Below are positions 12,810 to 64,000 of a DNA stretch of 64,000 nt, piece by piece. Source of the stretch: Cyanophora paradoxa CCMP329 (Eukaryota > Plantae > Glaucophyta); contig QPMI01000295.1 of NCBI GenBank assembly GCA_004431415.1, positions 1-64,000 on the forward strand, written 5' to 3'. The translations under genes and the position numbers were made by a program. Below the pieces are notes generated by a model. The model saw nothing but the letters and a program-made list of their open reading frames with translations, searched no databases and was not told where the DNA came from. Each line of letters begins with the position of its first letter. The first letter of the stretch is position 1.

Positions 12810-12870
12810 GTATGGCTGCCACGGCAGCCTTGCTTACAGCAAGCTAAGCACAACATGTCTTGTCATGAAG
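12810..12870 (-). repeat. Terminal repeat B (3' end of element 1)
   Basis: gtatggctgccacggcagccttgcttacagcaagctaagcacaacatgtcttgtcatgaag is identical at 12810, 19958 and 21997. Confidence 0.95.
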
Positions 12871-13963
12871 TGAAGGTCTAGATTCGCGCTTGCCAAAGCC
12901 GCGAAGCTAAGATCATGACTCGCTCGCTCACAAGAAGGGCAAGCTGCAACTGCGCTCGAGGACATCAGCTAGCGCACGCTGCAGAGTGAGTCTTGCGGAC
13001 GTAGAATGATTGAACATTAGTGATCAATTGTTGATCAATTATTCATCAAAAGATATCAATGGTTGGCACTAACAATAGCTTAAAGATGACTGAAGGCATA
13101 GTAAACAATGGGCATTGCTAACACACATTGAAAGCGGCTAAGCAAAGCCGCTCGAGCGGCTAGGGAACAAGCCGCTCAGCAAGTTACACAGCTTGCCCTC
13201 GCTTGTGAGCGAGGGAGACAAGCGCCGACAGCACAGCAAAGGCGCACAACTGCGAAGCAAGACTCTAAGACTAGACAATCAACTACTGCGCCGAGTACGC
13301 GCGAGTTGCTGCCGACATGACTGCAGCGAAGCTGACGGGCCAGCGTAACGAGCACCAGGCCTAGCCATGAGCGCAGCCAAGGGCGGGCGCTCAGCAGAAT
13401 CGATATAGCGTCGGTAGACCGCTGACAACAAGGACCAGCGACCAACCGCTTGAACAAGCTCTTCAGGCACGCCCGCCGCAGCCAGAGCAGTAGCTCCACC
13501 GCGACGCAAGCCATGAGGTGTGATACCAGTGGCGTCCAAGCCCGCCGCGTCAAATGCGAACCGGAGAACATAGGCCACGGTCTGAGCTGACAGAGAACGA
13601 GCTGCGTCCCGAAGCTGCCCAAAAAGAGGTGCGCCCGGATCCGCGAGCGCTACAGTCCGCAAGTAGGTTCGAAACCAGAACACCGGACAGATGACCGACT
13701 CTGGGACAGCGCCCAAGACAACTTGCGCGCCTTGGCGACGACGATCGGTCTTGGAACCGGCAATGAAGAGCACGACGCGATCCGCGCGGATGGACACATC
13801 TTGCCGCCGGAGTGCCACGATTTCGCCACGCCGCAACAGGCCAAAGAAACCGGTAAGCAACATCACAAGGGCGCGAAGGAGCTTGTTTGAGGGGGAACGA
13901 GCGTAGGTACGAGCAATCGCCTCCAGGTGGACGGACGTGACCAATGCAGATTGCTTTGCTGGT

Positions 13964-16900
13964 TGTGCCGCCCACTTTCCGACTCCCAGCTAGCCCTGGT
14001 CGTCGGCTCTAAGCCGGCAGCTTGCCTTGCCTTGTACCCTTTGTAGCCTGCTATTCCTGGTGCCACGTTGTTGCCAACTGGCCCGCTTATTTTAGCCCTG
14101 GGCCCTCGCTTGCCCTGCGCGGCGCTCGCTTGCTGTCTGTCGACGTCCTTGTTCTCTTGTTCTCTCTGTCTTACGCTGGCTCTGCGCCTGCTGTGTACGT
14201 AATGGCACCCGCTTGCCGCCGCCCTACGGTGCCGTACGGGCCTGTCCCTCTCTGCTTGGGGCGCCTCTGGGCCTAGCCAACTGCTTAGCGCATCCCGCCC
14301 AGCGCATGGGGGCTGCTGCGTTGGGCTTCGACTTTTTAGCTCGTATGCCTGGGGACGAACGCTGCGCTCTTGCCCGAACCCCTGGACAAGCACGCCATCG
14401 TTTGCCTTGGCTTGCGCGTACGGCCTCCACTTTCTTGTAGTGGGAAGCGCCTATGCGGCAGAGCTTAGCAATACGAACCGCATGGTTCATGCCTTTCCAC
14501 CCGCCACTGCGCCTTTCTTGCTTACGGACCTGGCGCACCACTCTTTCTGTAGTGGGAAGCGTCCGCCAACCCGTCTATTGAGCCGCATGCGCTCACAGTC
14601 ATCTAAACGTGCCGTGGCTGCGCTCAAGAGCAAATGCTGATGCAGCCCGCGCGCATGTCGAGTGAAACTGTATTGCATTGTATCGGGGACGACACCACAA
14701 CGTACTACTAAATGTATTGTATGTGGAGCAACACCCTCTACATCTACACACGTCGTCATTACGATCGAATTGCGTGTTGACGCCGATCGAATGATGATCT
14801 TGTTGTCGTCGTGGCATGTCGTTTCTTCCCTGGTCCACGTGCAGTGAGACGTATGATGATTAAAGCTGTCTGACTGAGTATTCTTCACAAACATACCTTC
14901 TTTTCGTCGTCGTCTTGTTTTGTCGAGTTGCCCGCATGCTCGTGACATGCCAGGCTCGCAAGGCAGCTATGAAGCGCCAGTCAACCAATCTTTGCTCTCT
15001 GCAGAAAGTACAGAGTCAGCCCGCCAAGACGTGAATGCCCTGGGATAACATGGCCCCAGTCCGCGCCCGAGGTCTCACCTACGACGGCTGCGATGGCACC
15101 TCCGGCTAGCCCGAGGCACGCTCAATGGTGGCGAGTGTATCTGAAGAACGCATGGAGTCAAACCGCTGCGACGTGAAAGCCCCTGGGATAACAAGGCCCA
15201 GTACGCGCCCGAGGTCTCACCTACGACGGCTGCAGTGGCGCCTGCGGACCTCCCGAGGCACGCTCAGCGGCGGCGAGTGGCATCCCTCGTGAGGATCACT
15301 CCACTTGACTCCACCCTGCATCCAGAGGACGTGCGGCTCCGCGTCTCTCTCGGCTCTGCGGGTTGCGTACGCGTCAGTGGAAGCCGGCGCAGCTCCACTT
15401 GACAGCGATCTCTATGCGAGGAAGCGCATCTATCTGTTGTCAAGCCTACCGGGCGCACTGTCGCACCTAGTCGGCAGACAAGATGCCAAGACCTTGCCCT
15501 GGCTCCGACGACGTAGCTGCCCTTCTCCGGGACGTCCAGCTCGTCAAGCCAGATGTCAGTCGCTTCACGCACATCTCAAGCGTGTGCGAACTGTCGTTTT
15601 CTTCCTGTCGTGGGCGTTTGATCAGCGACCGAGGCCTGTTCAGCGGGCGGAGGTCTGACCGAGGCCTGTCCGGCGGGCGGAGGTCAACAGAAGCGTAAAG
15701 GATGCGCTCTGGAACGTCCTACGACGACGTGAGCAGCCATAGCTAAAGTTGGACGGCGGACAGCGGACCTGTCTGTTGAGGAGCGTCAGCAAGCAGCACT
15801 GGGTGATGCCCCGCGACCAGTCTTCACGTTCGCGCGTCGACTGCGTCGGCCCGTCGGGTGATTCCCGTGCATCGGTTGAACCTGGCAGCTGGGTGATGCC
15901 AGCTGGACGCCAGCGCTGTTTCGGTCTGCTTAGCTGTGGGTGATTCCACGCTGACCAAGCCAGCACGCACCGGCGCTCTAGTCCGGGTGATTCCGACCAA
16001 GCCTCCGCTTGCGACTCTCCGCTGCTGAGAGGTCCATACGTCTTGCCTACGACTATCACGCGAGCACCGATGATCATTCCGGGCCGCGCTGATGCTGTCT
16101 CCTGTCCCGCGATGGTGGCCTGCCTAAGCCCCGGCTACGCGCTGCATCTGCGTACGCTGGCGGACTCGATGGCTGTCCCGTCCGATCGTGGAGGATCCTT
16201 GGCGATGGGTCTGTATGATGCAACCAGTGGCCTGCTGCTGCTGCGGAGCCTGACCCCGTACGACTGGCTCGCCGCCTCTACTCTTCATGGCTTGCCTGCT
16301 CTACGCGTACGCGGCTGCACACTCTACTGTGCTGACCGATCGCCCCGCCTTGTGACTCCGCCGGCCGAGTCACTTGGCAACGCAATGCGGCAAGCTGCGC
16401 CGAGCTTGGCCCGCAACGCGTACTCTGCCGCTGCGGCTCTGCTGATCGAGCCTGCGGTCCTACACTCCTACATTCTACATCAAGTACCTTCTACACTGTG
16501 GAACTTTCGACCCGGCGCCGCCGCAGCCCGGCGGCTTGCGGCGCGGCGCCGGTTTCGAATTCGAGCTTAGTGCTAGCGCTAGCACTCGTTTTCCCCTCCG
16601 GCGGGATTTAGAGGGTTTGCCCCGGTTGGCTGGCGGCGCTCCGCGCGCTCTGGCGTCAGGTCGTGGGTCCCTCACCCAACTTCCCTTGTTGGGCCCAGTT
16701 CCTCATACTGGTGCCGACGGCCTGATGGATTTTAATTTGCCCCTCTGGCCCGCCCGCTGTGGCGCCGAGGACGGCTTTCTGTGCAGGGACGGTAGCCGGC
16801 TTTTGGCTCGTAGTCCGTTCAGCCTCGCCTACGCAGCTTTAGTTCAGCCTTTAGCTCGTAGCGCCGAGGACGGCTTTTTGTAGCGGGAAGCGTGTGCCGC

Positions 16901-17291
16901 CCACTTTCCGACTCCCAGCTAGCCCTGGTCGTCGGCTCTAAGCCGGCAGCTTGCCTTGCCTTGTACCCTTTGTAGCCTGCTATTCCTGGTGCCACGTTGT
17001 TGCCAACTGGCCCGCTTATTTTAGCCCTGGGCCCTCGCTTGCCCTGCGCGGCGCTCGCTTGCTGTCTGTCGACGTCCTTGTTCTCTTGTTCTCTCTGTCT
17101 TACGCTGGCTCTGCGCCTGCTGTGTACGTAATGGCACCCGCTTGCCGCCGCCCTACGGTGCCGTACGGGCCTGTCCCTCTCTGCTTGGGGCGCCTCTGGG
17201 CCTAGCCAACTGCTTAGCGCATCCCGCCCAGCGCAAGCCGGCTTAGAGCCGACGACCAGGGCTAGCTGGGAGTCGGAAAGTGGGCGGCACA
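13964..17291 (+). mobile_element. Non-autonomous LTR retroelement (LARD/TRIM-like) with 343-bp LTRs and an extra inverted 55-bp terminal segment
   Basis: Apparently identical TG..CA LTRs at 13964-14306 and 16893-17235. TGGGGGCT follows the 5' LTR (start of a tRNA-Pro-type PBS). Purine-rich AGCGGGAAGCG precedes the 3' LTR. 4-bp TSD TGGT at 13960-13963 and 17292-17295. No recognisable gag/pol. Confidence 0.85.
15028..15279 (+). repeat. Two diverged copies of a unit with about 142-bp period inside the LTR element
   Basis: gacgtgaa..ccctgggataaca..cgcgcccgaggtctcacctacgacggctgc..cccgaggcacgctca at 15028 and 15170. Confidence 0.8.
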
Positions 17292-17765
17292 TGGTTTTCC
17301 ACAAAGTCGGGCGATTCCTTGCAATGTTTGCAGCACAAGGGGGTGAGCAAATGCAGTAGTAGGCAACATCCTCTGCCTTGTCTGATGTAGCAGAGCAGAG
17401 TGACACTGGTCAATTGCTGAGAGACCGTACTCTTCATCAGCAAGAGCCACCAGCAGTGTTGCGACGCCAGAAGCTGTTGGTGGCCAGGCTGGAATGCAGT
17501 GAACCGCGCAATGGCCTTCATAGAGGACGACCCAGCGGGCGTAGAGGCTTTGGGTTCGCTCGCTCACAGAGTTTGTTCTGTAGAAAGTGACCCGGTTGAG
17601 CAGATCAGCCATACGAGCACCTGCATCACCAGTCAAGGGTATGTCAGACTACATTTCTTCTTCTTCTTTTTAAAGCCCCCACTCAAGCTTTCTATCCCTG
17701 TTGCTGGACAAAGTAAGCTGAGCAGAGATGAGCAGGAGTTGAATTCTGCAGCAAGAGCCTTCAAT

Positions 17766-19729
17766 CTACTCCCACGACGCATAAAGAGCAACAAGAATCC
17801 AGGAAGGTAACTGTGCCGAGCGAGGCCCGCGATAGCACACGTCATATGCTGGGCCGAGCACCATTGCAGGTGCACGCAAGGCAAGCTGCAACTGTGGCCA
17901 CCATGGAGCTGAGGGCCACTGAGGGACAATAAAAACTGCCGAGGCCCTACACTGGCGGACATGTGACACAAGGTGCAAGAGGAAATTTGGGTCTGGAAAG
18001 ACGTAATTACGAGCACCACGCCAGGTTGCTGTAAAGCAATCATATCCTTCAGCATGTCGATCATTCAAATCAATGGAAAAGTATCGATTTAGGTGAGTGT
18101 TGGCTGATGAGGCCATACGATCAATATCAAAAGGTCCAAATGTCCGACTGACCATGGCAAAATATCCAGGTTTCAAAGAGTAGTCGGCGGGGTAAAAGTA
18201 GCGACTCAAAGCATCGGACCACTCATTGTCAACACCAGGAATGTGTTCTGCTTCAATGCTGATGCAGTTGAGCAGAGCAATATCCCAAATTGCTGCTGCA
18301 ACTCGGCAAAGGTATTCATGTCTTCCGCCACCATTGTTGATGTAGGCCACAGTCACTGTGTTGTCCGAGCGAACTAAGATGTTCTGATTGCGCAATAAAC
18401 CTTGATAGTGCTGCATAGCGCGAAGCACTGCCATTAACTCGCGCCACGACGAAATTTGCTGAGCTTCTTCTTGGTTCCACAGGCACTGGAATGGGGCAGG
18501 CTCAAGCTCCCAAGCCACAGGTTGAGCATCACCAATTCGGGTAGTGATCCAGGCTCCTGCACCAACATGGCTTGCATCCGTAGTCAACACAAGGAGCCTT
18601 TCAGGCCGAATAGGGCAGCGGCCATTGTATCGGTGGATGTTGGCCAGCCACCACTCAAGTTCCCGACGAGTCTCATTGGTGAGCTCCACTGGATGATTCC
18701 AATGCCATTCTCTTGCCACAACATTGATGTATCGAAAGAGGGACCTGGTCTTGATGCGAGCTGGAGCCAAGCCCGTGCCATGGACACAAGGGTGCCGGCG
18801 ACCTTGGCCATTTCACGTGCAGATGCTGATTTCTTTTTCTTCAGAAGCCCTTTGATCAAAGCAAGCAGACGACCAAGCTTGTCTTGGGGTACTTCAAACA
18901 ACATGCGGGCGGAGTCCACTATGAAGCCCAAGAAAGCCACCGACTGTGCTGGGGTGAGCTCAGATTTGCTGTTGACCACAAGCTTGAGGGCAGCAAATGT
19001 TTTGAGGACGAAATCCCGCAATTCACAGGCCTTCTCGTAGGTTGGAGCAGCAAACCACCAGTCGTCAACATAGTTCACCACGAAGATGCCAAAGCGGCGG
19101 AAGTAGTTGACCACTTGTCGCATGATCTTGACGAATGCAAACGGTGAGTGCTTGAGGCCGAAGGGCAAAACTGTGTACACATAGAATTTGCTGTCAAACT
19201 CAAAGCCCATGTTCCGCCAGTCTTGCGGGGAGACTGGCACGTGGTGGTATCCAGATTCAAGGTCAATAGTGAACATGTACCAGCCTTGGCGCAGCATGGC
19301 TGCAACATGCTCAAGAGTCTCATACTTGAAGGGGATGTCCGGAAGGCCTTTATTGGTAGGCCGGCCATCCCAGATGAGCCGCAACTTGGATCCAGTCTTC
19401 TTGGGCACCACAGACAGTGAGCAGACAATGTTCACTTGAGCTTCTTCAACTTCTCTGATCGCTCCCGTGCGCAAAAGCTTCTGAATTTCGGTTCTCACAA
19501 AGTCCTGATGGTCCACAGCCGCAGACTTGTGGTTGGCCCGGCGCTCTGCTGGCAGCCGCCTCGCTCCTGACAAAGGGAAACCACGCAAGATCCAGTTGAG
19601 CACGACATCATTGGCTCCAATCGCTCTCCACTGTTGGACTGCAGCTTGAATGCAGGATGCAACAAAGCCTCCTGCAAAGTGAGGTGAGGCCTTGCATTGG
19701 CAGACATGCCCAATTATCGCGGTGCCCAT
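17766..19729 (-). CDS. Pol of element 1: RT + RNase H + Dam-like methyltransferase domain (1-nt frameshift near 18772)
   Basis: KLRLIWDGR, FTIDLESGYHHV, LPFGL, YVDD; RNase H TTDAS, RELMA, RSDN, DALSR; MT-like FDIDRMAS, YVFPDP, PQWPSAPWWP. Confidence 0.93.
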
Positions 19730-20744
19730 CTAGCACTGCTACAGCTGATGGTCCATGCAGCCGCTGGCTTGAAGATGGTGACACGCGAACGGGAAGAAGC
19801 TTAGAGGCCTTGGCTGCGAAGCAAGACTGAGGCTTGTACCCAGGGGCGCACTTATAACTTGTAAGTGCGCCCCTTGTACATATGTGCGTAAGCAAGGCTG
19901 CCTTTATTTGGCAGCCATACACTGCCCTATGCTACGCTGACGCTCACATAGGTTCGAGTATGGCTGCCACGGCAGCCTTGCTTACAGCAAGCTAAGCACA
20001 ACATGTCTTGTCATGAAGAATATAAGAGTGAGCGTGTCAATGTGCTTGTTGGTTCAAGTCTTGAGCTCACATGCACACACAGTGCCACAATGCACCCACA
20101 GTGCCACAACACATTTGCACAGGCATGGACTTTCTGGATGAATGCGCCAACCTGCGATATCAGCGGGAACAGTTGGCATCATGGAATCTTCGTACCCTTG
20201 TGTACTCCTCACCTGCAAAATGCACTAGGTTAATTTCAGAGCGCCCAGTATGCGATAGCGACACACGGGAAGGCCGGAGGGGGCCAGGAGCTCGACAGCC
20301 ATCAGCACTCCTGACCTGTGCTGGAAACAGGTCAGTTGCCGGGAGTCAGCTGGGGCTCTGCCAGGTTGGAGTCATCCAGACGGCAATATATGCCACTAGC
20401 ATTGAAAAGAAAAGTAGACTACACTCACAGTCACACTTCACAGTGTTAACACATGCAAATGCACACAGGACCAATGCATAAAGCCACAGCACGCCGGCGC
20501 CACCACGGCTGGTAATGACTATGCCGCACCCGGCCACAATGCCGCACCCGGCCACACCATCACATGAAATGGAAGCATAATACATGTATTGCATGTTTAG
20601 GGAAGCATACACGCACACTCTAGATCTTCTGAAGACTGCACTTGCATATGCTAGCAATACTTATGCTTGCAAGAACACACCGAAACACTAGTATCTAGCG
20701 AAATGCGAAACGAAAACTGCGCGTCCACACAAGGGCGCGCACGT

Positions 20745-21829
20745 CTACTTGGGGGGGTCGCGCCAGCCGGGGCGCGGCTCGTTCGGGCAATCCTTCACGA
20801 CATGCCCGGGCTTGTTGCAGCGGAAACACATCCGCTGTTGCGCTGCGACGGCGGGCGATCGCGGCCCTGGTGCTGGGGCCGCGGGTTGGCGTGCTGCACA
20901 TACGGGCGCCCGCCGGCGGCCTCCGGGCCAGCAATGTTGAGCGCGTGCGCCAGCGCCGCAGCCGTGCCCCGATACTCCTCTGGCACACCTGCCAGCCGCT
21001 CGGCAAGCTTGTCGCCGCCCTTGTCGCGAATGTCGATCCGCTTCCGGAGCTCGTCGAGGATTTTGAGGCTCTGCTTTACGTGATCGTAGCACGCAGTGCA
21101 CGAAGAGCATCTCTTGAGCTGAAACTTAAGCTGCGATAGCTGCAGGGCAAGCTCACGAAGCCACGGGTTTTTGAGCTGCATAGCCTCATGGTTGTCTTTC
21201 TGCTGCTCGCCGAGCTGCTGCTGCTGCTGCTCTTGAAGCTTGATGACCGCGCTATCTATCCCACGCTGAAGTAGCTCAGCCCACGCTGGCGGAAGCGCAC
21301 CCGCTGCCGGTTTGGTCGACGTTGGGGCAGTCGAGTTGCCAGCGGGTACAGCATAAGGGCCTTGAAGGTGACGGGTGAAGCCGGTTGACGGGCCAGCCGC
21401 GCCGGATCACTTGCGCCAAGTTCGGAAAGTTGCGCGCAGCCACTTGCTCTTCCTCGTCGTAGGCGCCACCGAACTGCTCACGCTGTGCCAGTCTAACGGC
21501 AACGTCGTCCTCAGGTTCATCTTCTGGGTCGGACTGCTGCTGGTCCGGATCCGGCGACACGGCTTTCTCCTTGCCTTTGCGAGATCGCGTCGGCGGAGGT
21601 GCAGGCTGCTCCTCCTCCGCACTGTCGTTGGCCGGAGCTTGAAGACGAGATGACGACCTCCGGGCCTGGGGCGCGGGGTCGTCGCCGTCTTGGGTTTGGC
21701 CGACTTGCGCGCACCAGTGGCCGTTGACTTGCGTTTCTGCGCCGCCTCGGCACAGGCGACGAGCAGAATGATGGTCAAGACGACTACGAACAGAGGGGCC
21801 CACGATGGGCTCCTCCGCGAGCGAGCCAT
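20745..21829 (-). pseudogene. Second gag copy of element 1 (frameshifted, possibly by consensus errors)
   Basis: Same sequence as 22784-23872 with single-base losses in C/G runs near 20832, 21402-21410 and 21676. Confidence 0.8.
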
Positions 21830-22783
21830 GACCTCAGCTTAGAGGCCTTGGCTGCGAAGCAAGACTGAGGCTTGTACCCCAGGGGCGCACTTATAACTTG
21901 TAAGTGCGCCCCTTGTACATATGTGCGTAAGCAAGGCTGCCTTTATTTGGCAGCCATACACTGCCCTATGCTACGCTGACGCTCACATAGGTTCGAGTAT
22001 GGCTGCCACGGCAGCCTTGCTTACAGCAAGCTAAGCACAACATGTCTTGTCATGAAGAATATAAGAGTGAGCGTGTCAATGTGCTTGTTGGTTCAAGTCT
22101 TGAGCTCACATGCACACACAGTGCCACAATGCACCCACAGTGCCACAACACATTTGCACAGGCATGGACTTTCTGGATGAATGCGCCAACCTGCGATATC
22201 AGCGGGAACAGTTGGCATCATGGAATCTTCGTACCCTTGTGTACTCCTCACCTGCAAAATGCACTAGGTTAATTTCAGAGCGCCCAGTATGCGATAGCGA
22301 CACACGGGAAGGCCGGAGGGGGCCAGGAGCTCGACAGCCATCAGCACTCCTGACCTGTGCTGGAAACAGGTCAGTTGCCGGGAGTCAGCTGGGGCTCTGC
22401 CAGGTTGGAGTCATCCAGACGGCAATATATGCCACTAGCATTGAAAAGAAAAGTAGACTACACTCACAGTCACACTTCACAGTGTTAACACATGCAAATG
22501 CACACAGGACCAATGCATAAAGCCACAGCACGCCGGCGCCACCACGGCTGGTAATGACTATGCCGCACCCGGCCACAATGCCGCACCCGGCCACACCATC
22601 ACATGAAATGGAAGCATAATACATGTATTGCATGTTTAGGGAAGCATACACGCACACTCTAGATCTTCTGAAGACTGCACTTGCATATGCTAGCAATACT
22701 TATGCTTGCAAGAACACACCGAAACACTAGTATCTAGCGAAATGCGAAACGAAAACTGCGCGTCCACACAAGGGCGCGCACGT

Positions 22784-23872
22784 CTACTTGGGGGGGTCGC
22801 GCCAGCCGGGGCGCGGCTCGTTCGGGCAATCCTTCACGACATGCCCGGGCTTGTTGCAGCGGAAACACATCCCGCTGTTGCGCTGCGACGGCGGGCGATC
22901 GCGGCCCTGGTGCTGGGGCCGCGGGTTGGCGTGCTGCACATACGGGCGCCCGCCGGCGGCCTCCGGGCCAGCAATGTTGAGCGCGTGCGCCAGCGCCGCA
23001 GCCGTGCCCCGATACTCCTCTGGCACACCTGCCAGCCGCTCGGCAAGCTTGTCGCCGCCCTTGTTGCGAATGTCGATCCGCTTCCGGAGCTCGTCGAGGA
23101 TTTTGAGGCTCTGCTTTACGTGATCGTAGCACGCAGTGCACGAAGAGCATCTCTTGAGCTGAAACTTAAGCTGCGATAGCTGCAGGGCAAGCTCACGAAG
23201 CCACGGGTTTTTGAGCTGCATAGCCTCATGGTTGTCTTTCTGCTGCTCGCCGAGCTGCTGCTGCTGCTGCTCTTGAAGCTTGATGACCGCGCTATCTATC
23301 CCACGCTGAAGTAGCTCAGCCCACGCTGGCGGAAGCGCACCCGCTGCCGGTTTGGTCGACGTTGGGGCAGTCGAGTTGCCAGCGGGTACAGCATAAGGGC
23401 CTTGAAGGTGACGGGTGAAGCCGGTTGACGGGCCAGCCGCGCCCGGATCCACTTGCGCCAAGTTCGGAAAGTTGCGCGCAGCCACTTGCTCTTCCTCGTC
23501 GTAGGCGCCACCGAACTGCTCACGCTGTGCCAGTCTAACGGCAACGTCGTCCTCAGGTTCATCTTCTGGGTCGGACTGCTGCTGGTCCGGATCCGGCGAC
23601 ACGGCTTTCTCCTTGCCTTTGCGAGATCGCGTCGGCGGAGGTGCAGGCTGCTCCTCCTCCGCACTGTCGTTGGCCGGAGCTTGAAGACGAGATGACGACC
23701 TCCGGGCCTGGGGCGCGGGGGTCGTCGCCGTCTTGGGTTTGGCCGACTTGCGCGCACCAGTGGCCGTTGACTTGCGTTTCTGCGCCGCCTCGGCACAGGC
23801 GACGAGCAGAATGATGGTCAAGACGACTACGAACAGAGGGGCCCACGATGGGCTCCTCCGCGAGCGAGCCAT
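22784..23872 (-). CDS. Gag-like protein of element 1 (362 aa) with signal-peptide-like N-terminus and CCHC knuckle
   Basis: Intact ORF; CFRCNKPGHVVKDC; homologous along its length to 59384-60520. Confidence 0.9.
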   Translation of the reverse strand: MARSRRSPSWAPLFVVVLTIILLVACAEAAQKRKSTATGARKSAKPKTATTPAPQARRSSSRLQAPANDSAEEEQPAPPPTRSRKGKEKAVSPDPDQQQSDPEDEPEDDVAVRLAQREQFGGAYDEEEQVAARNFPNLAQVDPGAAGPSTGFTRHLQGPYAVPAGNSTAPTSTKPAAGALPPAWAELLQRGIDSAVIKLQEQQQQQLGEQQKDNHEAMQLKNPWLRELALQLSQLKFQLKRCSSCTACYDHVKQSLKILDELRKRIDIRNKGGDKLAERLAGVPEEYRGTAAALAHALNIAGPEAAGGRPYVQHANPRPQHQGRDRPPSQRNSGMCFRCNKPGHVVKDCPNEPRPGWRDPPK

Positions 23873-23878
23873 GACCTC

Positions 23879-24039
23879 AGCTTAGAGGCCTTGGCTGCGA
23901 AGCAAGACTGAGGCTTGTACCCCAGGGGCGCACTTATAACTTGTAAGTGCGCCCCTTGTACATATGTGCGTAAGCAAGGCTGCCTTTATTTGGCAGCCAT
24001 ACACTGCCCTATGCTACGCTGACGCTCACATAGGTTCGA
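23879..24039 (-). repeat. Terminal repeat A (5' end of element 1)
   Basis: Also at 21836-21996 and 19798-19957. Contains a 13-bp perfect stem aggggcgcactta/taagtgcgcccct and ends 6 nt before the gag ATG. Confidence 0.95.
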
Positions 24040-24547
24040 CTAAAGAGAAAGTATTACACATACATTGCGTTGCCTCTCGTCATGTAGAAACGGGGCAACG
24101 CAGCGAATCGAGCACGGGGGGCCTGGGCGCCCCCACAGCCCTCTCCTCATCTACTGCTGCTCAGCAGCATCTAGCAGCATCCAGCAGCATCTATCATAGT
24201 AGTGTAGCTAGATGCCGCGATAGGTAAAACAGTAGCGAATAGCTATCTCAAAGTGTTATACATGTGGTGCGAGCACGGGCCAGGGTCGGGTCCGGCTCGG
24301 CGAGGCATGAAAAGGGGTGTCTAGGACGAATAATGATGGAGGGCCGGAAAGCAACGCGCTTAACTAGCGCGGGGGTGCCACGGCGATCTAATTGCGCCGC
24401 CGTGGAATACTCTGATGGAGATACGGACGGGAAAGGCCCGACCTGGGGCGCGCGCCCGGCCCCGGGCCCTGGGTGAATAAGGCTGCATAGAAGAGCGCTC
24501 AACTAGCGCTGGACCGGAGGTGACGGTGCCCCCGGGGGTCCGGGGCC

Positions 24548-59226: not shown

Positions 59227-59383
59227 CAGCGCTTGGGTCTTTTGCGGCGCTTTTCCTATTGAATATGCGAGCGAACGCGTAGCATATGACTTTGTATGCC
59301 TGCCACTCCGTAAGCAGCCTTGATTCTATACAATGATTGTTAGGGGTACAACCTTCAGTCTTCTTTCGCGCGAAGCAGTGAAG

Positions 59384-60520
59384 ATGTGTCGCGTGGCTCG
59401 TCGTGGGAGGGGCCCTAGCTGGGCCCCTCTGGTGGTCACACTTGTTCTCGTCGTCGTCGTTTTCAGCCTCTTGGCGGCCTGCGCGGAGGCGGGGTCGAAA
59501 AAGAAGGGCAAGTCTTCCGCAACGGGCTCCCGCAAGACAGCCCGTCCGCGGCCGACCGCATCCGCCCAGCCACGAGCTCGCCGTTCCACGCGTGTGACCG
59601 AGGCGGCGGACTCCGGCGGCGAGGACAACGGTTCGGCGCCTACTCCAACGCCAAGTGGCCGTCAGTCAACCAGCAACAAGCGCAAGGCGCCAGCCGCCCC
59701 GGCAGTCGAAAACCGCACCAGTGACGGCGTTCCGGATCCGGAGCCATTTTCCGAGGACGAGGAGGATGTGATTGCCGGCGTGCAGCGTCGTGAGCAGTTC
59801 GGCGGTGCAGCCACACGAGAGGAAGCTCTTGCCGCACAGATGTTCCCGAATCTCGAGATGCCGGTTCCCGACCAGCCAGGACCCAGCCGGCACACTCGGC
59901 ACCGCCACGGCCCGGTTCCCGTCGTCAATGCCACAACAGCCCCTGCCGGTGAGCTTAATGAGTACATTAAGAAGCAGATTCAGCAAGGCATAGACCGAGG
60001 GGTAGAGTCCATCCGTGAGCACCAGCATCAAATCGCTCAGGAGCAGCAGCGCGAACAGCATGAAGCAATGCAGCTTAAGAATACCTGGCTTCGGGAGTTT
60101 GCGTTCCAGCTGATACAGCTGCGTTTCCAGCTCAAGGGGCTCCTCTCGTGTGTCGCCTGTGCAGCAACCCTCAAAGCGTCTTTGAAGCAGCTCGAGGAGC
60201 TTAAGAAGAAGATAGATATCCGCGACAAAGGCGGCGATAAGACAGCCGAGGCGCTTGCAGCTGTGCCGGAGGAGCACCGCGCACAGACCGCGTCGATGGC
60301 GTACGCGCTTCGTGTGGCTGGCGTCGGCGCCGGTAATTCGTATGCACCAGCTGAGCGCCAGCCGTCTAGCTATCGGCCCCCGCAGCGGCAGCGTGTCGAA
60401 CGCGAGCAGGCGCCCACCGCCCAGCGGAATGGCGGCGCTTGCTTTAGGTGCAACCAGCACGGCCACCATGTGAAGGATTGCACCAACCCGCCGCGCCCGG
60501 ATTGGCGCGAGAAGAAGTAG
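59384..60520 (+). CDS. Gag-like protein of element 2 with signal-peptide-like N-terminus and CCHC knuckle
   Basis: First ATG at 59384; PSWAPL-hydrophobic-ACAEA; REQFGGA; HEAMQLKN; IDIRDKGGDK; CFRCNQHGHHVKDC. Confidence 0.9.
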   Translation: MCRVARRGRGPSWAPLVVTLVLVVVVFSLLAACAEAGSKKKGKSSATGSRKTARPRPTASAQPRARRSTRVTEAADSGGEDNGSAPTPTPSGRQSTSNKRKAPAAPAVENRTSDGVPDPEPFSEDEEDVIAGVQRREQFGGAATREEALAAQMFPNLEMPVPDQPGPSRHTRHRHGPVPVVNATTAPAGELNEYIKKQIQQGIDRGVESIREHQHQIAQEQQREQHEAMQLKNTWLREFAFQLIQLRFQLKGLLSCVACAATLKASLKQLEELKKKIDIRDKGGDKTAEALAAVPEEHRAQTASMAYALRVAGVGAGNSYAPAERQPSSYRPPQRQRVEREQAPTAQRNGGACFRCNQHGHHVKDCTNPPRPDWREKK

Positions 60521-61593
60521 GCGGCTTCCTGTGCCCAGCCTTTCGGGCGCAGCTGTAGAGTGCTAGGTTTTTTTCGTTTTCGTGTGGCCCCCGACTTGGC
60601 ATGTGCATGTGCTCGTAGCTGTGCTGTGCTGTGTGTGTGCCATGAAGGAATAAATCTGGGCTTTCTTATGTGTGTTTGAGCTTGCATTGCATTCGTGGTG
60701 ATGGGTCTGTGGTGAACACTAGCTTGGCAATTGCAATGTGCATGACCTTGTGATCGTTTCAAATTTGCCATAGTCTACAAGGCCTTGTAACTACGAATTT
60801 TGCATAAGCTTTGAGCATCACAACTTTGTGGGCCATAAGTGCCACCTGGATGACTCCAACCTGGTGCGAGCCCCAGCCAATCCCCAACAGCCTGACCTCT
60901 TCTCGTCCCAGGTCACATCAGGCTGCGGTCGAGTTGCCGAGTTCCTGGCCAGCAACGGCCATCTCGTGTGTCGCCATCGCGCGCTGGGTGCTCAGATCTA
61001 ATCATTTGGTATCGCAGGTGTGGAGGAAATCATCTCTTGGTATTCAGGTGTGTCTCCCAATTTTCTATTCTGTTCCGCAGGTTGGCGCATTCATCCAGAG
61101 GTGTGCATGCTGGACAAGTTTTGAAGCATTCAAGAGAACAAGTTGTGTACTTGCATGAGTCCATATGTGTGTGCTGTGCATGCTGTGATGTGCCTTCATT
61201 CAAGAACTTCGCGCATCCACCGTGGAGGTGAACGTCAGGTGTTGTGACAAGTTCGTACCTGTGACACGCTCACTATTAAAGACTTCATGATCGGACTTGG
61301 CTTAGAATTGCTTAGAAGCAAGGCTGCTTGTGGCAGACATACTATTGAATATGCGAGCGAACGCGTAGCATATGACTTTGTATGCCTGCCACTCCGTAAG
61401 CAGCCTTGATTCTATACAATGATTGTTAGGGGTACAACCTTCAGTCTTCTTTCGAGCGAAGCAGTGAAGATTCCTCACGTTTGCGTGTCACAGCCGCCCT
61501 CCAGCGTACCAGCTCCAGCTCCAACTCAGCTCCAGCTGCAGCTGGAGCCAGACTCAACTGCAGCTCAGCCTGTCAGCTTGTGTCGTTGATAAG

Positions 61594-63570
61594 ATGTGGC
61601 GACAATTTAAGGCCTCAAGCCCAATTCCTGTGCGCTTGTGACTTTTAGCCACCAGGTTCTTTTGTGGCGTCCTGCATCCGTGAGGCCTGGTCCCAGTGGA
61701 AGGAGATTGGTGCCAACTATGTGGTGTTGTCATGGATACGTGACGGTTTCCCGCTGACTGGGGCCCGCAACCTGCCACCGGAGCATCGGCATATATATAA
61801 TCACAAGTCTGCAGCCGAGGATCACAGGGATTTTGTGCAGACGGAAATTCAGAAACTCTTGCGCACCGGGGCCATTCGTGAAGTCCAACAGCACGAAGTG
61901 AACATTGTGTGCTCCTTGTCCGTGGTCCCAAAGAAGACCGGCTCCAAACTTCGTCTGATCTGGGACGGTCGACCCACCAATCAAGGTCTACCAGATCGGA
62001 AATTTCGATTTGAGACTCTTGAGCATGTGGCGGCAATGCTCCGTCAAGGGTGGTACATGTTCACCATTGACCTAGAGTCTGGCTATCACCACGTGCCAGT
62101 GGCGGAGCAAGATTGGCGCAACATGGGCTTCTCTTTTGACAGCAAGTATTATGTCTATACGGTTTTGCCCTTCGGCCTTCGACACTCGCCTTTTGCATTC
62201 GTCAAAATTATGCGGCAAGTGGTCAACTATTTCAGGAAACTGGGCATCTTTGTTGTCAACTATGTGGACGATTGGTGGTTTGCGGCTCCTACTTTCTTGG
62301 AGGCCTGTAAGCTGCGAGACTTTAATTTGTGCTGGCTACATTTAAACGGCTTAAGTTGGTGGTCAACAGCAAGTCAGCGCTTACCCCATCTCAGTCAGTG
62401 GCTTTCCTGGGCTTCATTGTGGACTCGGCTCGCATGTTGTTTGAGGTTCCTGGCGACAAGCTGAGCAGACTACTTCAGCTGATCCGCAAGCTCCTACGCA
62501 AACACTCAGCGTCTGCCCGTGATATGGCAAAGGTGGCAGGCACCTTGGTATCCATGGCTCGAGGGCTTGCTCCAGCTCGCATCCAGACTTGTGCTTTGTT
62601 CCGTTACATCAATGTGGCGGCCCGGGAGTGGCACTGGAACCATCCTGTGCAGATTACTGATGAGACTCGGTCTGAGCTCCAGTGGTGGCTGGCCAACATA
62701 CACAAGTACAATGGGCGCTGTCCGATTCGTCCTGAGCGGCTACTTGTGCTCACCACTGATGCTAGTCATCTTGGTGCTGGAGCTTGGATTACCACGCGGA
62801 TCGGTGATGTACCTCCTGTGCTCTGTGCTCCTGGCCCGCCTCCATTCCAGTGCCTGTGGAACAGTGAGGAATCTCAGCGAATCTCTTCTTGGAGGGAGCT
62901 GCAAGCTGTGCTACGGGCTATGCAACACTATCAGTCTGTGCTTCAGAATCAGAACATCTTGGTTCGATCGGACAACTCTGTGACAGTTGCTTATATCAAC
63001 AATGGTGGCGGTCGTCATGCTTATTTGACGGAGATCGCTCGTCAGATTTGGGACATTGCCTTGACAGGTTGTGTTAGCATTGAGGCCGAGCATATTCCAG
63101 GCATAGATAACGAGTGGTCAGATGCTCTTAGCAGGTACTTTTTTCCAGCAGACTACTCCCTTAAGCCGGTATATTTTGCTATGGTCAGCCGCATTTTAGG
63201 CCCTTTTGACGTGGACAGGATGGCCACAGCTGCCAATGCCCACCTTCCTCGATATTTCTCTGTAGATTTGCGTGATGCCCGTGCCGAAGGGCATGATTGC
63301 TTCACTGTGTCATGGCTTGGTGCTCGCAACTACGTGTTTCCGGATCCCAATGTGATCCTGCATGTGGTCTCTCATGTTAGACAGTGCAGAGCAGCTGCAG
63401 TCTTTGTCGTACCTGATTGGCCCTCCGCCCCATGGTGGCCCCAGCTTGAGCAGGCAAGGCAGGCTCCTGTGTTGTACTTGGGGCCTGCTTCAACCGTCTG
63501 CTTGCCAGGCCCTCGTTCTCCTGTTCTTCCGTCTTGGTCTCTTGTGGCTATTTCCGCAGCCTGGCAGTAG
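61594..63570 (+). pseudogene. Pol of element 2 (RT-RNase H-MT), frameshifted by a 5-nt insertion at 62324-62328
   Basis: YVDD, TTDAS, RSDN, DALSR, YVFPDP. RDF-[aattt]-VLATF aligns with RDFVLKTF of element 1. The start is inferred. Confidence 0.88.
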
Positions 63571-64000
63571 CACACAAATTAGCCATCTGCAAATATAACG
63601 ATTTCGCATCCGGGGCCCCTTCTTAGTCCTCGTACGCAGCTTGCCTGACATTGCATTTGCTGCAGATGTGCGGCGTCGGCTGGGTTCTTGTGCTCTTTCG
63701 CCCCCAGAGAGCTTGCGCAAAGCTTGGAAAAGCTCTCAAATGAATACTGTACGGATGGGCATGCGTGAGGATGCGAGGGCGCGCGGAAAGATGGGCAGGT
63801 TTGTCAAGGATCGAATTCTTGCATGGGGTCGGCTGGGTCCTCGCGGCCCGGCGCATCTGCAAAGCGCGCGGAAGGATTTGTCTACATCTCAAATGCTTAT
63901 ACTATTGTTCCGCGCATGCGCCGCGGCGTGGGCGCGCGGAAAGATGTCCGGGCCTGTGCAGGATCGAATTTTCCGAAGTTCGCCGCCGGGTGCCTTCCTG
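63571..64000. repeat. Unrelated repeat-rich sequence, possibly the end of another transposon interrupting element 2
   Basis: Homology to element 1 stops at the pol stop codon. Recurrent gcgcgcggaa(a/g)gat (about 63779, 63864, 63932), aggatcgaatt (2 copies) and catctgcaaa (2 copies). Confidence 0.45.

What the first reader, a model, noticed from the sequence alone, without database searches (positions are those of the whole stretch)
23786..23872. Retrotransposon Gag with a conserved secretory-signal-like leader (also 59384-59491)
Seen: both Gags begin with a basic n-region, a long hydrophobic core and an A-x-A-type cleavage motif: MARSRRSPSWAPLFVVVLTIILLVACAEA|AQKRK and MCRVARRGRGPSWAPLVVTLVLVVVVFSLLAACAEA|GSKKK. 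PSWAPL and ACAEA are kept while the following linker diverges. No nearby downstream Met offers a leaderless form, yet the CCHC knuckle is retained. Known: DIRS-order Gags are regarded as cytosolic and the elements lack Env. Inference: ER entry or membrane anchoring, possibly membrane-associated or exported RNP particles and a route between cells.
Basis: partly seen in the sequence, partly recalled or inferred. Interest (0 to 1): 0.82.

Follow-up and report, generated by a model that had tools for sequence, protein, structure and literature searches.

The report
Membrane-targeting leader on DIRS retrotransposon Gag
Two related jumping genes in a single-celled alga start their RNA-packaging protein with a conserved hydrophobic stretch shaped like a secretion signal, which likely tethers particle assembly to an internal membrane rather than exporting the element to other cells.

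Summary
Observation confirmed. Both ORF1/Gag proteins (47% identical) of two split-direct-repeat DIRS retrotransposons (RT-RNaseH, weak Dam, tyrosine recombinase), in Cyanophora paradoxa by database labels, open with a basic n-region, a hydrophobic core and ACAEA, and end in a CCHC knuckle. Three subfamilies keep the leader, all 5 within-family core changes stay hydrophobic, leader dN/dS is 0.26, and contigs of likely RNA runs cross it unspliced. Corrections: PSWAPL sits on a conserved RNA hairpin (ACAEA on a weaker one), so those motifs are not independent proof of a signal peptide. A polybasic tract follows the cleavage motif. ER-targeted Gag/capsid proteins are known (IAP, Ty1, HEV ORF2, HBV precore), and in IAP, ER addressing goes with a strictly intracellular cycle. 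Best reading (0.5): SRP/ER targeting with the Gag body left cytosolic, nucleating RNPs on membranes. Cell-to-cell export has no support (0.08). No homologue was found outside this species, no capsid fold was found, and my paper searches and this scan's notes gave no DIRS precedent. SignalP-type predictors could not be run. New variant of a known kind.

The parts
23786..23872 (-). Element 1 Gag leader: n-region (+3), hydrophobic core 23801-23836, ACAEA 23786-23800
23834..23861 (-). Predicted RNA hairpin over the R-R-S-P-S-W-A-P-L codons, shared with element 2
23693..23779 (-). Polybasic, disordered tract directly after the cleavage motif (net +9 within 40 aa of the core)
22784..23872 (-). Element 1 ORF1/Gag, 362 aa: leader, disordered linker, helical domain 22970-23329, CCHC knuckle 22826-22867
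20745..21829 (-). Second, tandem gag copy with the same leader; four single-base losses and one substitution against copy 1
23879..24039 (-). Split direct repeat A1 (5' end, likely promoter); A recurs at about 21836-21996 and 19798-19957
21997..22057 (-). Split direct repeat B abutting A (B-A junction); again at 19958-20018
17766..19729 (-). pol: RT, RNase H, weak Dam-type methyltransferase; one frameshift near 18760 in this copy
13279..17648 (-). Tyrosine recombinase ORF, interrupted by a 3.3-kb insertion (13964-17291)
12810..12870 (-). Terminal repeat B2 (3' end of element 1)
59384..59491 (+). Element 2 Gag leader: n-region (+4), hydrophobic core 59429-59473, ACAEA 59477-59491
59406..59430 (+). 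Predicted RNA hairpin over the G-R-G-P-S-W-A-P-L codons
59384..60520 (+). Element 2 ORF1/Gag, 378 aa, knuckle 60440-60481
59256..59385 (+). Element 2 repeat A1; A2 at 61342-61471 before pol
61650..63570 (+). Element 2 pol (RT by translation and 73% DNA identity to element 1; RNase H, weak Dam); frameshift near 62321; the element's 3' part is not in the window
23471..23798 (+). Antisense GT-AG introns 23471-23556 and 23641-23798 across element 1 gag, seen in run X10

Best explanation
The leader is likely an SRP-recognised ER-targeting sequence whose downstream basic cluster likely keeps most of the Gag body in the cytosol, so that Gag would gather element RNA into replication particles on the ER face inside the same cell. 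Shown: the leader exists, is in frame at the first ATG after the repeat-A motif, is kept in three subfamilies, and is followed by a polybasic, disordered tract and a CCHC knuckle. Inferred: SRP binding; head-on (N-out/C-in) anchoring or signal cleavage with aborted translocation; RNP assembly at the membrane. A minority may be fully translocated (dual topology). The same nucleotides carry an RNA hairpin that may serve as a packaging or initiation signal.
For: Hydrophobicity far beyond shuffles. T at codon position 2 in 11 of 12 and 13 of 15 core codons, and the core is unstructured as RNA. All 5 within-family core substitutions are hydrophobic, P about 0.06-0.10 on its own. Leader 73% identical with dN/dS 0.26, against 0.21 for the helical domain, 0.13 for the knuckle and 0.33-0.61 for linkers. 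In-register antisense identity is only 9 of 22 against 16 of 22 in sense. Unspliced contigs cross the leader in X2 and X8 (element 1) and in X2 and X10 (element 2). Net +9 to +11 within 40 aa after the core; positive residues after a signal favour N-out/C-in insertion (PMC9309488 passages). The knuckle is the most constrained part and needs access to RNA (established knowledge). Precedents: HEV ORF2 signal plus Arg motif gives a cytosolic reverse-anchored capsid (PMC9451086); HBV precore is 70-80% released to the cytosol after cleavage (PMC2114996 abstract); IAP Gag is brought to the ER membrane by SRP without translocation in vitro (as cited in PMC3945221).
Against: No localisation data and no trained predictor run. 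The 15-residue charge difference is -2 to -3, which favours N-in/C-out, i.e. ordinary translocation. The conserved A-x-A fits a cleaved signal, and the element-1 core (12 aa; 21 uncharged) is short for a stable anchor. PSWAPL conservation is partly explained by RNA structure. dS is near saturation and the core alone has dN/dS 0.33, like the linkers. Contigs give no strand and the runs are only guessed to be RNA. In X10 element 1 appears mainly as a spliced antisense RNA. Translation of the leader is not shown.
Confidence: 0.5

Rival explanations
1. Ordinary cleaved signal peptide: most Gag enters the ER lumen and is either returned to the cytosol (Ty1-like maturation detour) or secreted as a non-packaging form.
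For: Textbook n/h/c layout with two overlapping (-3,-1) sites kept in all subfamilies and charge difference -2 to -3. Ty1 Gag transits the lumen (PMC3945221 abstract and passages). Sequons are present in the linker.
Against: Sequon counts are at chance (2 vs 1.0 expected, P 0.27; 3 vs 1.2, P 0.11) and one is lost in P0021. Polybasic tract right after the site. No conserved nearby leaderless start to supply cytosolic Gag.
Confidence: 0.2
2. The region is kept mainly as a cis-acting RNA element (5' hairpins for packaging, initiation or reverse transcription), and the hydrophobic peptide is a tolerated by-product of a (GTC)n-like spacer with no membrane role.
For: The 5' 140-150 nt fold at z -5.0 and -2.3. 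Nine identical pairs in the PSWAPL stem and four over ACAEA. The PSWAPL stem beats synonymous recodings (2 and 4 of 500).
Against: The core is unstructured (414 and 425 of 500 recodings fold as well) yet stays hydrophobic. Loop changes are synonymous (Ser TCG/AGC, Cys, Ala). The ACAEA stem is weak (21 and 61 of 500). The main stem shows no compensatory change. A core this hydrophobic would be expected to engage SRP regardless (inference).
Confidence: 0.13
3. Uncleaved anchor for another membrane (mitochondrial or plastid outer membrane, or nuclear envelope) with the body cytosolic.
For: A short N-terminal hydrophobic segment followed by basic residues is the layout of outer-membrane signal anchors (recalled). 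Conserved juxtamembrane Cys.
Against: Very high core hydrophobicity (KD about 3.3) usually favours SRP/ER (recalled). No positive evidence for an organelle.
Confidence: 0.09
4. Membrane-anchored Gag drives budding of RNA-containing particles into the secretory pathway or vesicles and release, giving Env-independent spread between cells.
For: The layout would allow budding. Env-less Drosophila MDG1-group elements spread between cells using a small transmembrane protein with a juxtamembrane polybasic region (10.1101/2025.03.14.642691 passages).
Against: That protein is a separate ORF with an ectodomain bearing an amphipathic motif and often a myristoylation motif; here the N-terminal side is 12-15 basic residues and Gly2 is not conserved. 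ER-addressed IAP is strictly intracellular. No entry mechanism is evident, and no homologue was found in other species.
Confidence: 0.08

Closest known systems
PAT-like DIRS retrotransposons (PAT, TOC, kangaroo) (PMC3266345, PMC6681497, 10.1101/2021.08.05.455354; passages)
   Same: Gag-like ORF1, RT/RNase H with methyltransferase-like tail, tyrosine recombinase, split direct repeats.
   Different: ORF1 starts with a signal-like leader. The B-A junction lies between gag and pol, so each has its own copy of A, instead of B1-A2-B2 at the 3' end. The one distant relative whose ORF1 I could read (L001, 29% pol identity) has no leader.
Mouse IAP Gag (PMC2791754 passages; PMC3945221 passage citing Fehrmann 2003, which was not held)
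   Same: Env-less retroelement whose Gag N-terminus addresses it to the ER membrane by SRP, with the body not translocated.
   Different: IAP is a retroviral ERV with a true capsid and derives from an infectious ancestor. No sequence relation is shown; here no capsid fold was found and no infectious ancestor is known.
Yeast Ty1 Gag (PMC3945221 abstract and passages)
   Same: SRP/ER step proposed to nucleate particle assembly sites.
   Different: Ty1 Gag has no discernible signal sequence and passes through the lumen; LTR/copia order.
HEV ORF2 capsid (PMC9451086) and HBV precore (PMC2114996)
   Same: Nucleic-acid-binding structural protein with an N-terminal signal; a basic motif after the signal (HEV) or aborted translocation (HBV) yields a cytosolic pool.
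   Different: These are viruses with an extracellular phase; the analogy is architectural only.

Membership tests
Order DIRS (YR retrotransposons) | Tyrosine recombinase instead of integrase | tested here: met
   PF00589 E 1e-12 at 13279-13989; interrupted in this copy; element 2's YR region is not in the window
Order DIRS (YR retrotransposons) | RT and RNase H | tested here: met
   PF00078 E 5e-19; PF17917 E 3e-5
Order DIRS (YR retrotransposons) | Gag-like ORF1 upstream (defined by position; CCHC in some) | tested here: met
   First ORF after A1, with CCHC
PAT-like superfamily | Split direct repeats (A...B-A...B) | tested here: met
   A about 160 nt 98.8% alike, B 61 nt identical
PAT-like superfamily | Methyltransferase domain after RNase H | tested here: inconclusive
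   Dam PF05869 E 0.004 and 0.07, at the expected place but below the curated cut-off
PAT-like superfamily | RT/RH tree position as sister to DIRS1-like | not tested
   No named reference elements were available; filed as DIRS order, PAT-like in make-up only
Canonical SDR layout (Ngaro/PAT/VIPER as drawn in PMC6681497) | B1-A2-B2 all at the 3' end | tested here: not met
   B-A lies between gag and pol in both elements
DIRS1-like superfamily | Inverted terminal repeats plus internal complementary region | tested here: not met
   Termini are split direct repeats
Ngaro-like superfamily | No methyltransferase domain | tested here: inconclusive
   The weak Dam match argues against Ngaro
Cleavable ER signal peptide | Basic n-region, hydrophobic h-region, small residues at -3/-1 | tested here: met
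   (own script, not a trained predictor)
Cleavable ER signal peptide | At the translated N-terminus of an unspliced sense mRNA | tested here: inconclusive
   First ATG after TCAGT; unspliced contigs but no strand or start information
Cleavable ER signal peptide | SRP-dependent targeting, cleavage and translocation | not testable with these tools
   Needs SignalP/DeepTMHMM and microsome assays
Retroviral/LTR capsid Gag | CA-type capsid fold | tested here: inconclusive
   Low-confidence models (pLDDT 45 and 60); only generic helical-bundle matches
Env or sORF2/FAST fusogen | Separate ORF with ectodomain and transmembrane anchor | tested here: not met
   Single hydrophobic segment at the Gag N-terminus; best other 19-mer KD 0.67 and 1.28

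The most novel reading that the evidence does not exclude
A DIRS-order element with a membrane anchor built into Gag that buds RNA/cDNA-containing particles into the secretory pathway and releases them, i.e. an Env-independent extracellular phase for a tyrosine-recombinase retrotransposon in a unicellular alga.
Probability: 0.08. Interest if true: 0.9.

Novelty: new variant of a known kind. Interest (0 to 1): 0.6.

Why it matters
DIRS 'Gag' is defined largely by position (PMC6681497 passage), and I found no paper on where it acts. A conserved targeting leader gives a direct, mutable handle on where DIRS replication particles form. It would show ER addressing of Gag arising independently in a third retroelement lineage after Ty1 and IAP, here with an explicit signal and an RNA hairpin written in the same codons. 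If particles were released, it would offer a route for horizontal transfer of DIRS elements.

Tried and rejected
No whole genome is held, so copy number and leader DNA of other copies could not be examined. Homologue searches: P0001 gave 1 hit among 7,998 candidates; the P0002 helical region gave 1 among 437; the profile search gave 45 hits, of which 2 are these families and the other 43 match over the knuckle end (I read 6 of those 43). ESM Atlas gave leads under 0.9 only: unnamed zf-CCHC clusters of 179-279 aa, mollusc/nematode. RT-based locus searches: nothing in viral contigs and one metagenome locus, L001. Closer pol relatives P0065 (75%) and P0066 (54%) lie on 2-3 kb contigs whose gag I could not reach. 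Folds: no PDB or viral match at E<=0.001; best VIA Z 8.3 (rmsd 3.0, 77 aligned) to a designed helical protein, not meaningful for a helical bundle. Rejected: leader as an intron (possible sense GT-AG pairs exist, but no sense joint in the runs laid). Rejected: leader as the shadow of an antisense ORF. Rejected: ACAEA kept as a shared antisense splice acceptor (used in element 1 in X10, no such joint in element 2 in 4 runs). Rejected: bacterial lipobox reading of L-V/A-A-C (motif recalled; no route for a nuclear gene). No run is on record as RNA; contig depths were not used to rank genes. Paper searches with no DIRS precedent: 1 irrelevant listing; 0 'transmembrane' hits in 4 listed; 0 papers. 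The C. paradoxa genome paper PMC6704402 has 0 occurrences of DIRS, retrotranspos- or signal peptide in its main text (supplements not read). Repbase and subscription reviews (Poulter and Goodwin) could not be searched. Scan notes: none on this feature. No complex prediction was run.

Full report
Observation. Each has one strongly hydrophobic segment, at the N-terminus (19-mer KD 2.5 and 3.0; best elsewhere 0.67 and 1.28). Shuffles of the same residues reach the observed 15-mer value in 0 and 1 of 20,000 trials. A third copy of the element-1 leader lies at 21829 in a 99.7% tandem duplicate with four single-base losses, three of them in short base runs, possibly assembly errors (inference). The next in-frame Met is residue 218 in P0001; P0002's Met153 and Met159 are absent in subfamily P0021, leaving only the MQLKN Met conserved.

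Element. Element 1 reads A1-gag-B-A-gag'-B-A-pol-YR-B2 on the minus strand (24039 to 12810). It has RT, RNase H, a weak Dam match and a tyrosine recombinase that is interrupted by a 3.3-kb insertion. Element 2 shows A1-gag-B-A2-pol, and its 3' part is not in the window. Split direct repeats plus a methyltransferase-like tail are the PAT-like make-up (PMC3266345 and 10.1101/2021.08.05.455354, passages). The B-A junction between gag and pol departs from the drawn layout (PMC6681497 passages). No RT tree with references was made, so I file it as DIRS order, PAT-like in make-up. Database labels place the proteins in Cyanophora paradoxa; an earlier scan note on this genome names the same genus.

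Is the leader selected as protein? Of 21 cluster members I dropped 3 unrelated 40-48 aa peptides. Of the remaining 18, 14 carry the leader and 4 start at an internal Met; these are gene predictions from one species, not independent observations. Between the two families the leader (residues 8-29) is 73% identical with dN/dS 0.26 (NG86, 22 codons). The helical domain gives 0.21, the knuckle 0.13 and three linkers 0.33-0.61; the core alone gives 0.33 and dS is near saturation. Read in register on the antisense strand, identity falls to 9 of 22 against 16 of 22. Within family 2, all 5 core substitutions (4 in P0021, 1 in P0020) are hydrophobic, P about 0.06-0.10. T occupies codon position 2 in 11 of 12 and 13 of 15 core codons, which is partly circular for a stretch chosen as hydrophobic.

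A second code. The first 140-150 nt after the conserved TCAGT fold at z -5.0 and -2.3. Both families share a nine-pair stem over the R-x-P-S-W-A-P-L codons and a four-pair stem over ACAEA, neither with compensatory changes. The first beats synonymous recodings (2 and 4 of 500), the second is weak (21 and 61 of 500), and the hydrophobic core is unstructured. The case for a membrane signal rests on the core and on the synonymous loop changes (Ser TCG/AGC).

Expression. No run is on record as RNA, but X1, X2 and X10 show GT-AG joints over element 2 that X19 lacks, so they behave as RNA. Unspliced contigs cross the leader in X2 and X8 for element 1 (22122-23908) and in X2 (59356-61258) and X10 (59359-60252) for element 2. 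No sense-strand joint was listed in either gag. Against this: contigs give no strand, and X10 shows element 1 mostly as an antisense RNA with introns 23471-23556 and 23641-23798. Element 2 has seven antisense introns over pol and the B-A junction; the six exons I joined give no long ORF. Translation is not shown.

Structure and relatives. AlphaFold gives a leader helix, about 150 disordered residues, a helical domain and the knuckle, at low confidence (pLDDT 45; domain alone 60). No capsid fold was matched (inconclusive). No Gag homologue was found outside these families. The one distant DIRS locus obtained (L001, 29% pol identity) has an ORF1 without a leader. This suggests a lineage-restricted gain, on n=1.

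Mechanism. The n/h/c layout and a 15-residue charge difference of -2 to -3 look like a cleavable signal, but net +9 to +11 follows within 40 residues. Positive residues after a signal favour N-out/C-in insertion (PMC9309488 passages). The knuckle is the most constrained part and must meet RNA, and no nearby leaderless start exists, so a large cytosolic pool is the economical reading (inference). HEV ORF2 does this with a signal plus Arg motif (PMC9451086 abstract and passages). HBV precore does it by aborted translocation after cleavage (PMC2114996 abstract). SRP brings IAP Gag to the ER membrane without translocation in vitro, and Ty1 Gag uses SRP without a discernible signal (PMC3945221 abstract and passages). 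The Env-less spread of Drosophila MDG1-group elements uses a separate small fusogen-like ORF (10.1101/2025.03.14.642691 passages), which has no counterpart found here. Sequon counts are at chance. Odds: ER targeting with a cytosolic body 0.5; full translocation 0.2; RNA element with incidental peptide 0.13; other membrane 0.09; export between cells 0.08.

Novelty. Searches gave no DIRS Gag with a signal or transmembrane leader. PMC7192593 passages say nothing on Gag localisation. The library omits most subscription reviews and Repbase, and no supplements were read. The scan's notes hold no earlier instance. The phenomenon (ER-addressed Gag/capsid) is known, and its occurrence in a DIRS element appears new: new variant of a known kind, interest 0.6.

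Noticed in passing
window 21997-22057/21836-21996, 19958-20018/19798-19957, 61262-61471: The B-A junction of the split direct repeats lies between gag and pol in both families, giving pol its own copy of the promoter-like A repeat; A-A recombination would explain the tandem gag unit in element 1.
   Followed up: partly
window 61259-63563 (- strand): Heavily spliced antisense RNA over element 2 pol and the B-A junction: seven GT-AG introns in runs X1, X2 and/or X10, absent from X19; no long ORF in the joined exons. Possibly regulatory.
   Followed up: partly
window 12875-12927 (+): Inverted, degenerate copy of the end of repeat A plus the gag start codon region just inside terminal repeat B2; could be an antisense promoter or pair with the 5' end of the RNA.
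   Followed up: partly
window 13964-17291: 3.3-kb insertion in the tyrosine recombinase ORF with 55-nt terminal inverted repeats, an internal 350-nt direct repeat (13964-14314 and 16893-17243) and 140-nt tandem units; four ORFs tested have no Pfam match.
   Followed up: partly
window 22275-22424 (-) and 60840-60996 (+): Non-coding stretch between gag and B kept at 71% between families, with intron-like GT...CTGAC...CAG patterns on the sense strand but no joint in the runs laid.
   Followed up: partly
window 24010-24300: Contigs from the host side (downstream of an ABC-transporter-like gene on the - strand) run into repeat A1 of element 1, suggesting read-through.
   Followed up: no
window 59393-59395: In element 2 the position of element 1's ATG is GTG and the ATG lies 9 nt upstream; a further in-frame ATG at 59333 lies inside repeat A, before the putative start motif.
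   Followed up: no
window 63671-64000: Run X19 departs from the window near 63671, so this copy of element 2 may be truncated or interrupted before its recombinase ORF.
   Followed up: no
P0066 (Logan contig, 2786 nt): A further pol family at 54% identity, closer than any other database relative apart from P0065; its gag could not be reached.
   Followed up: no
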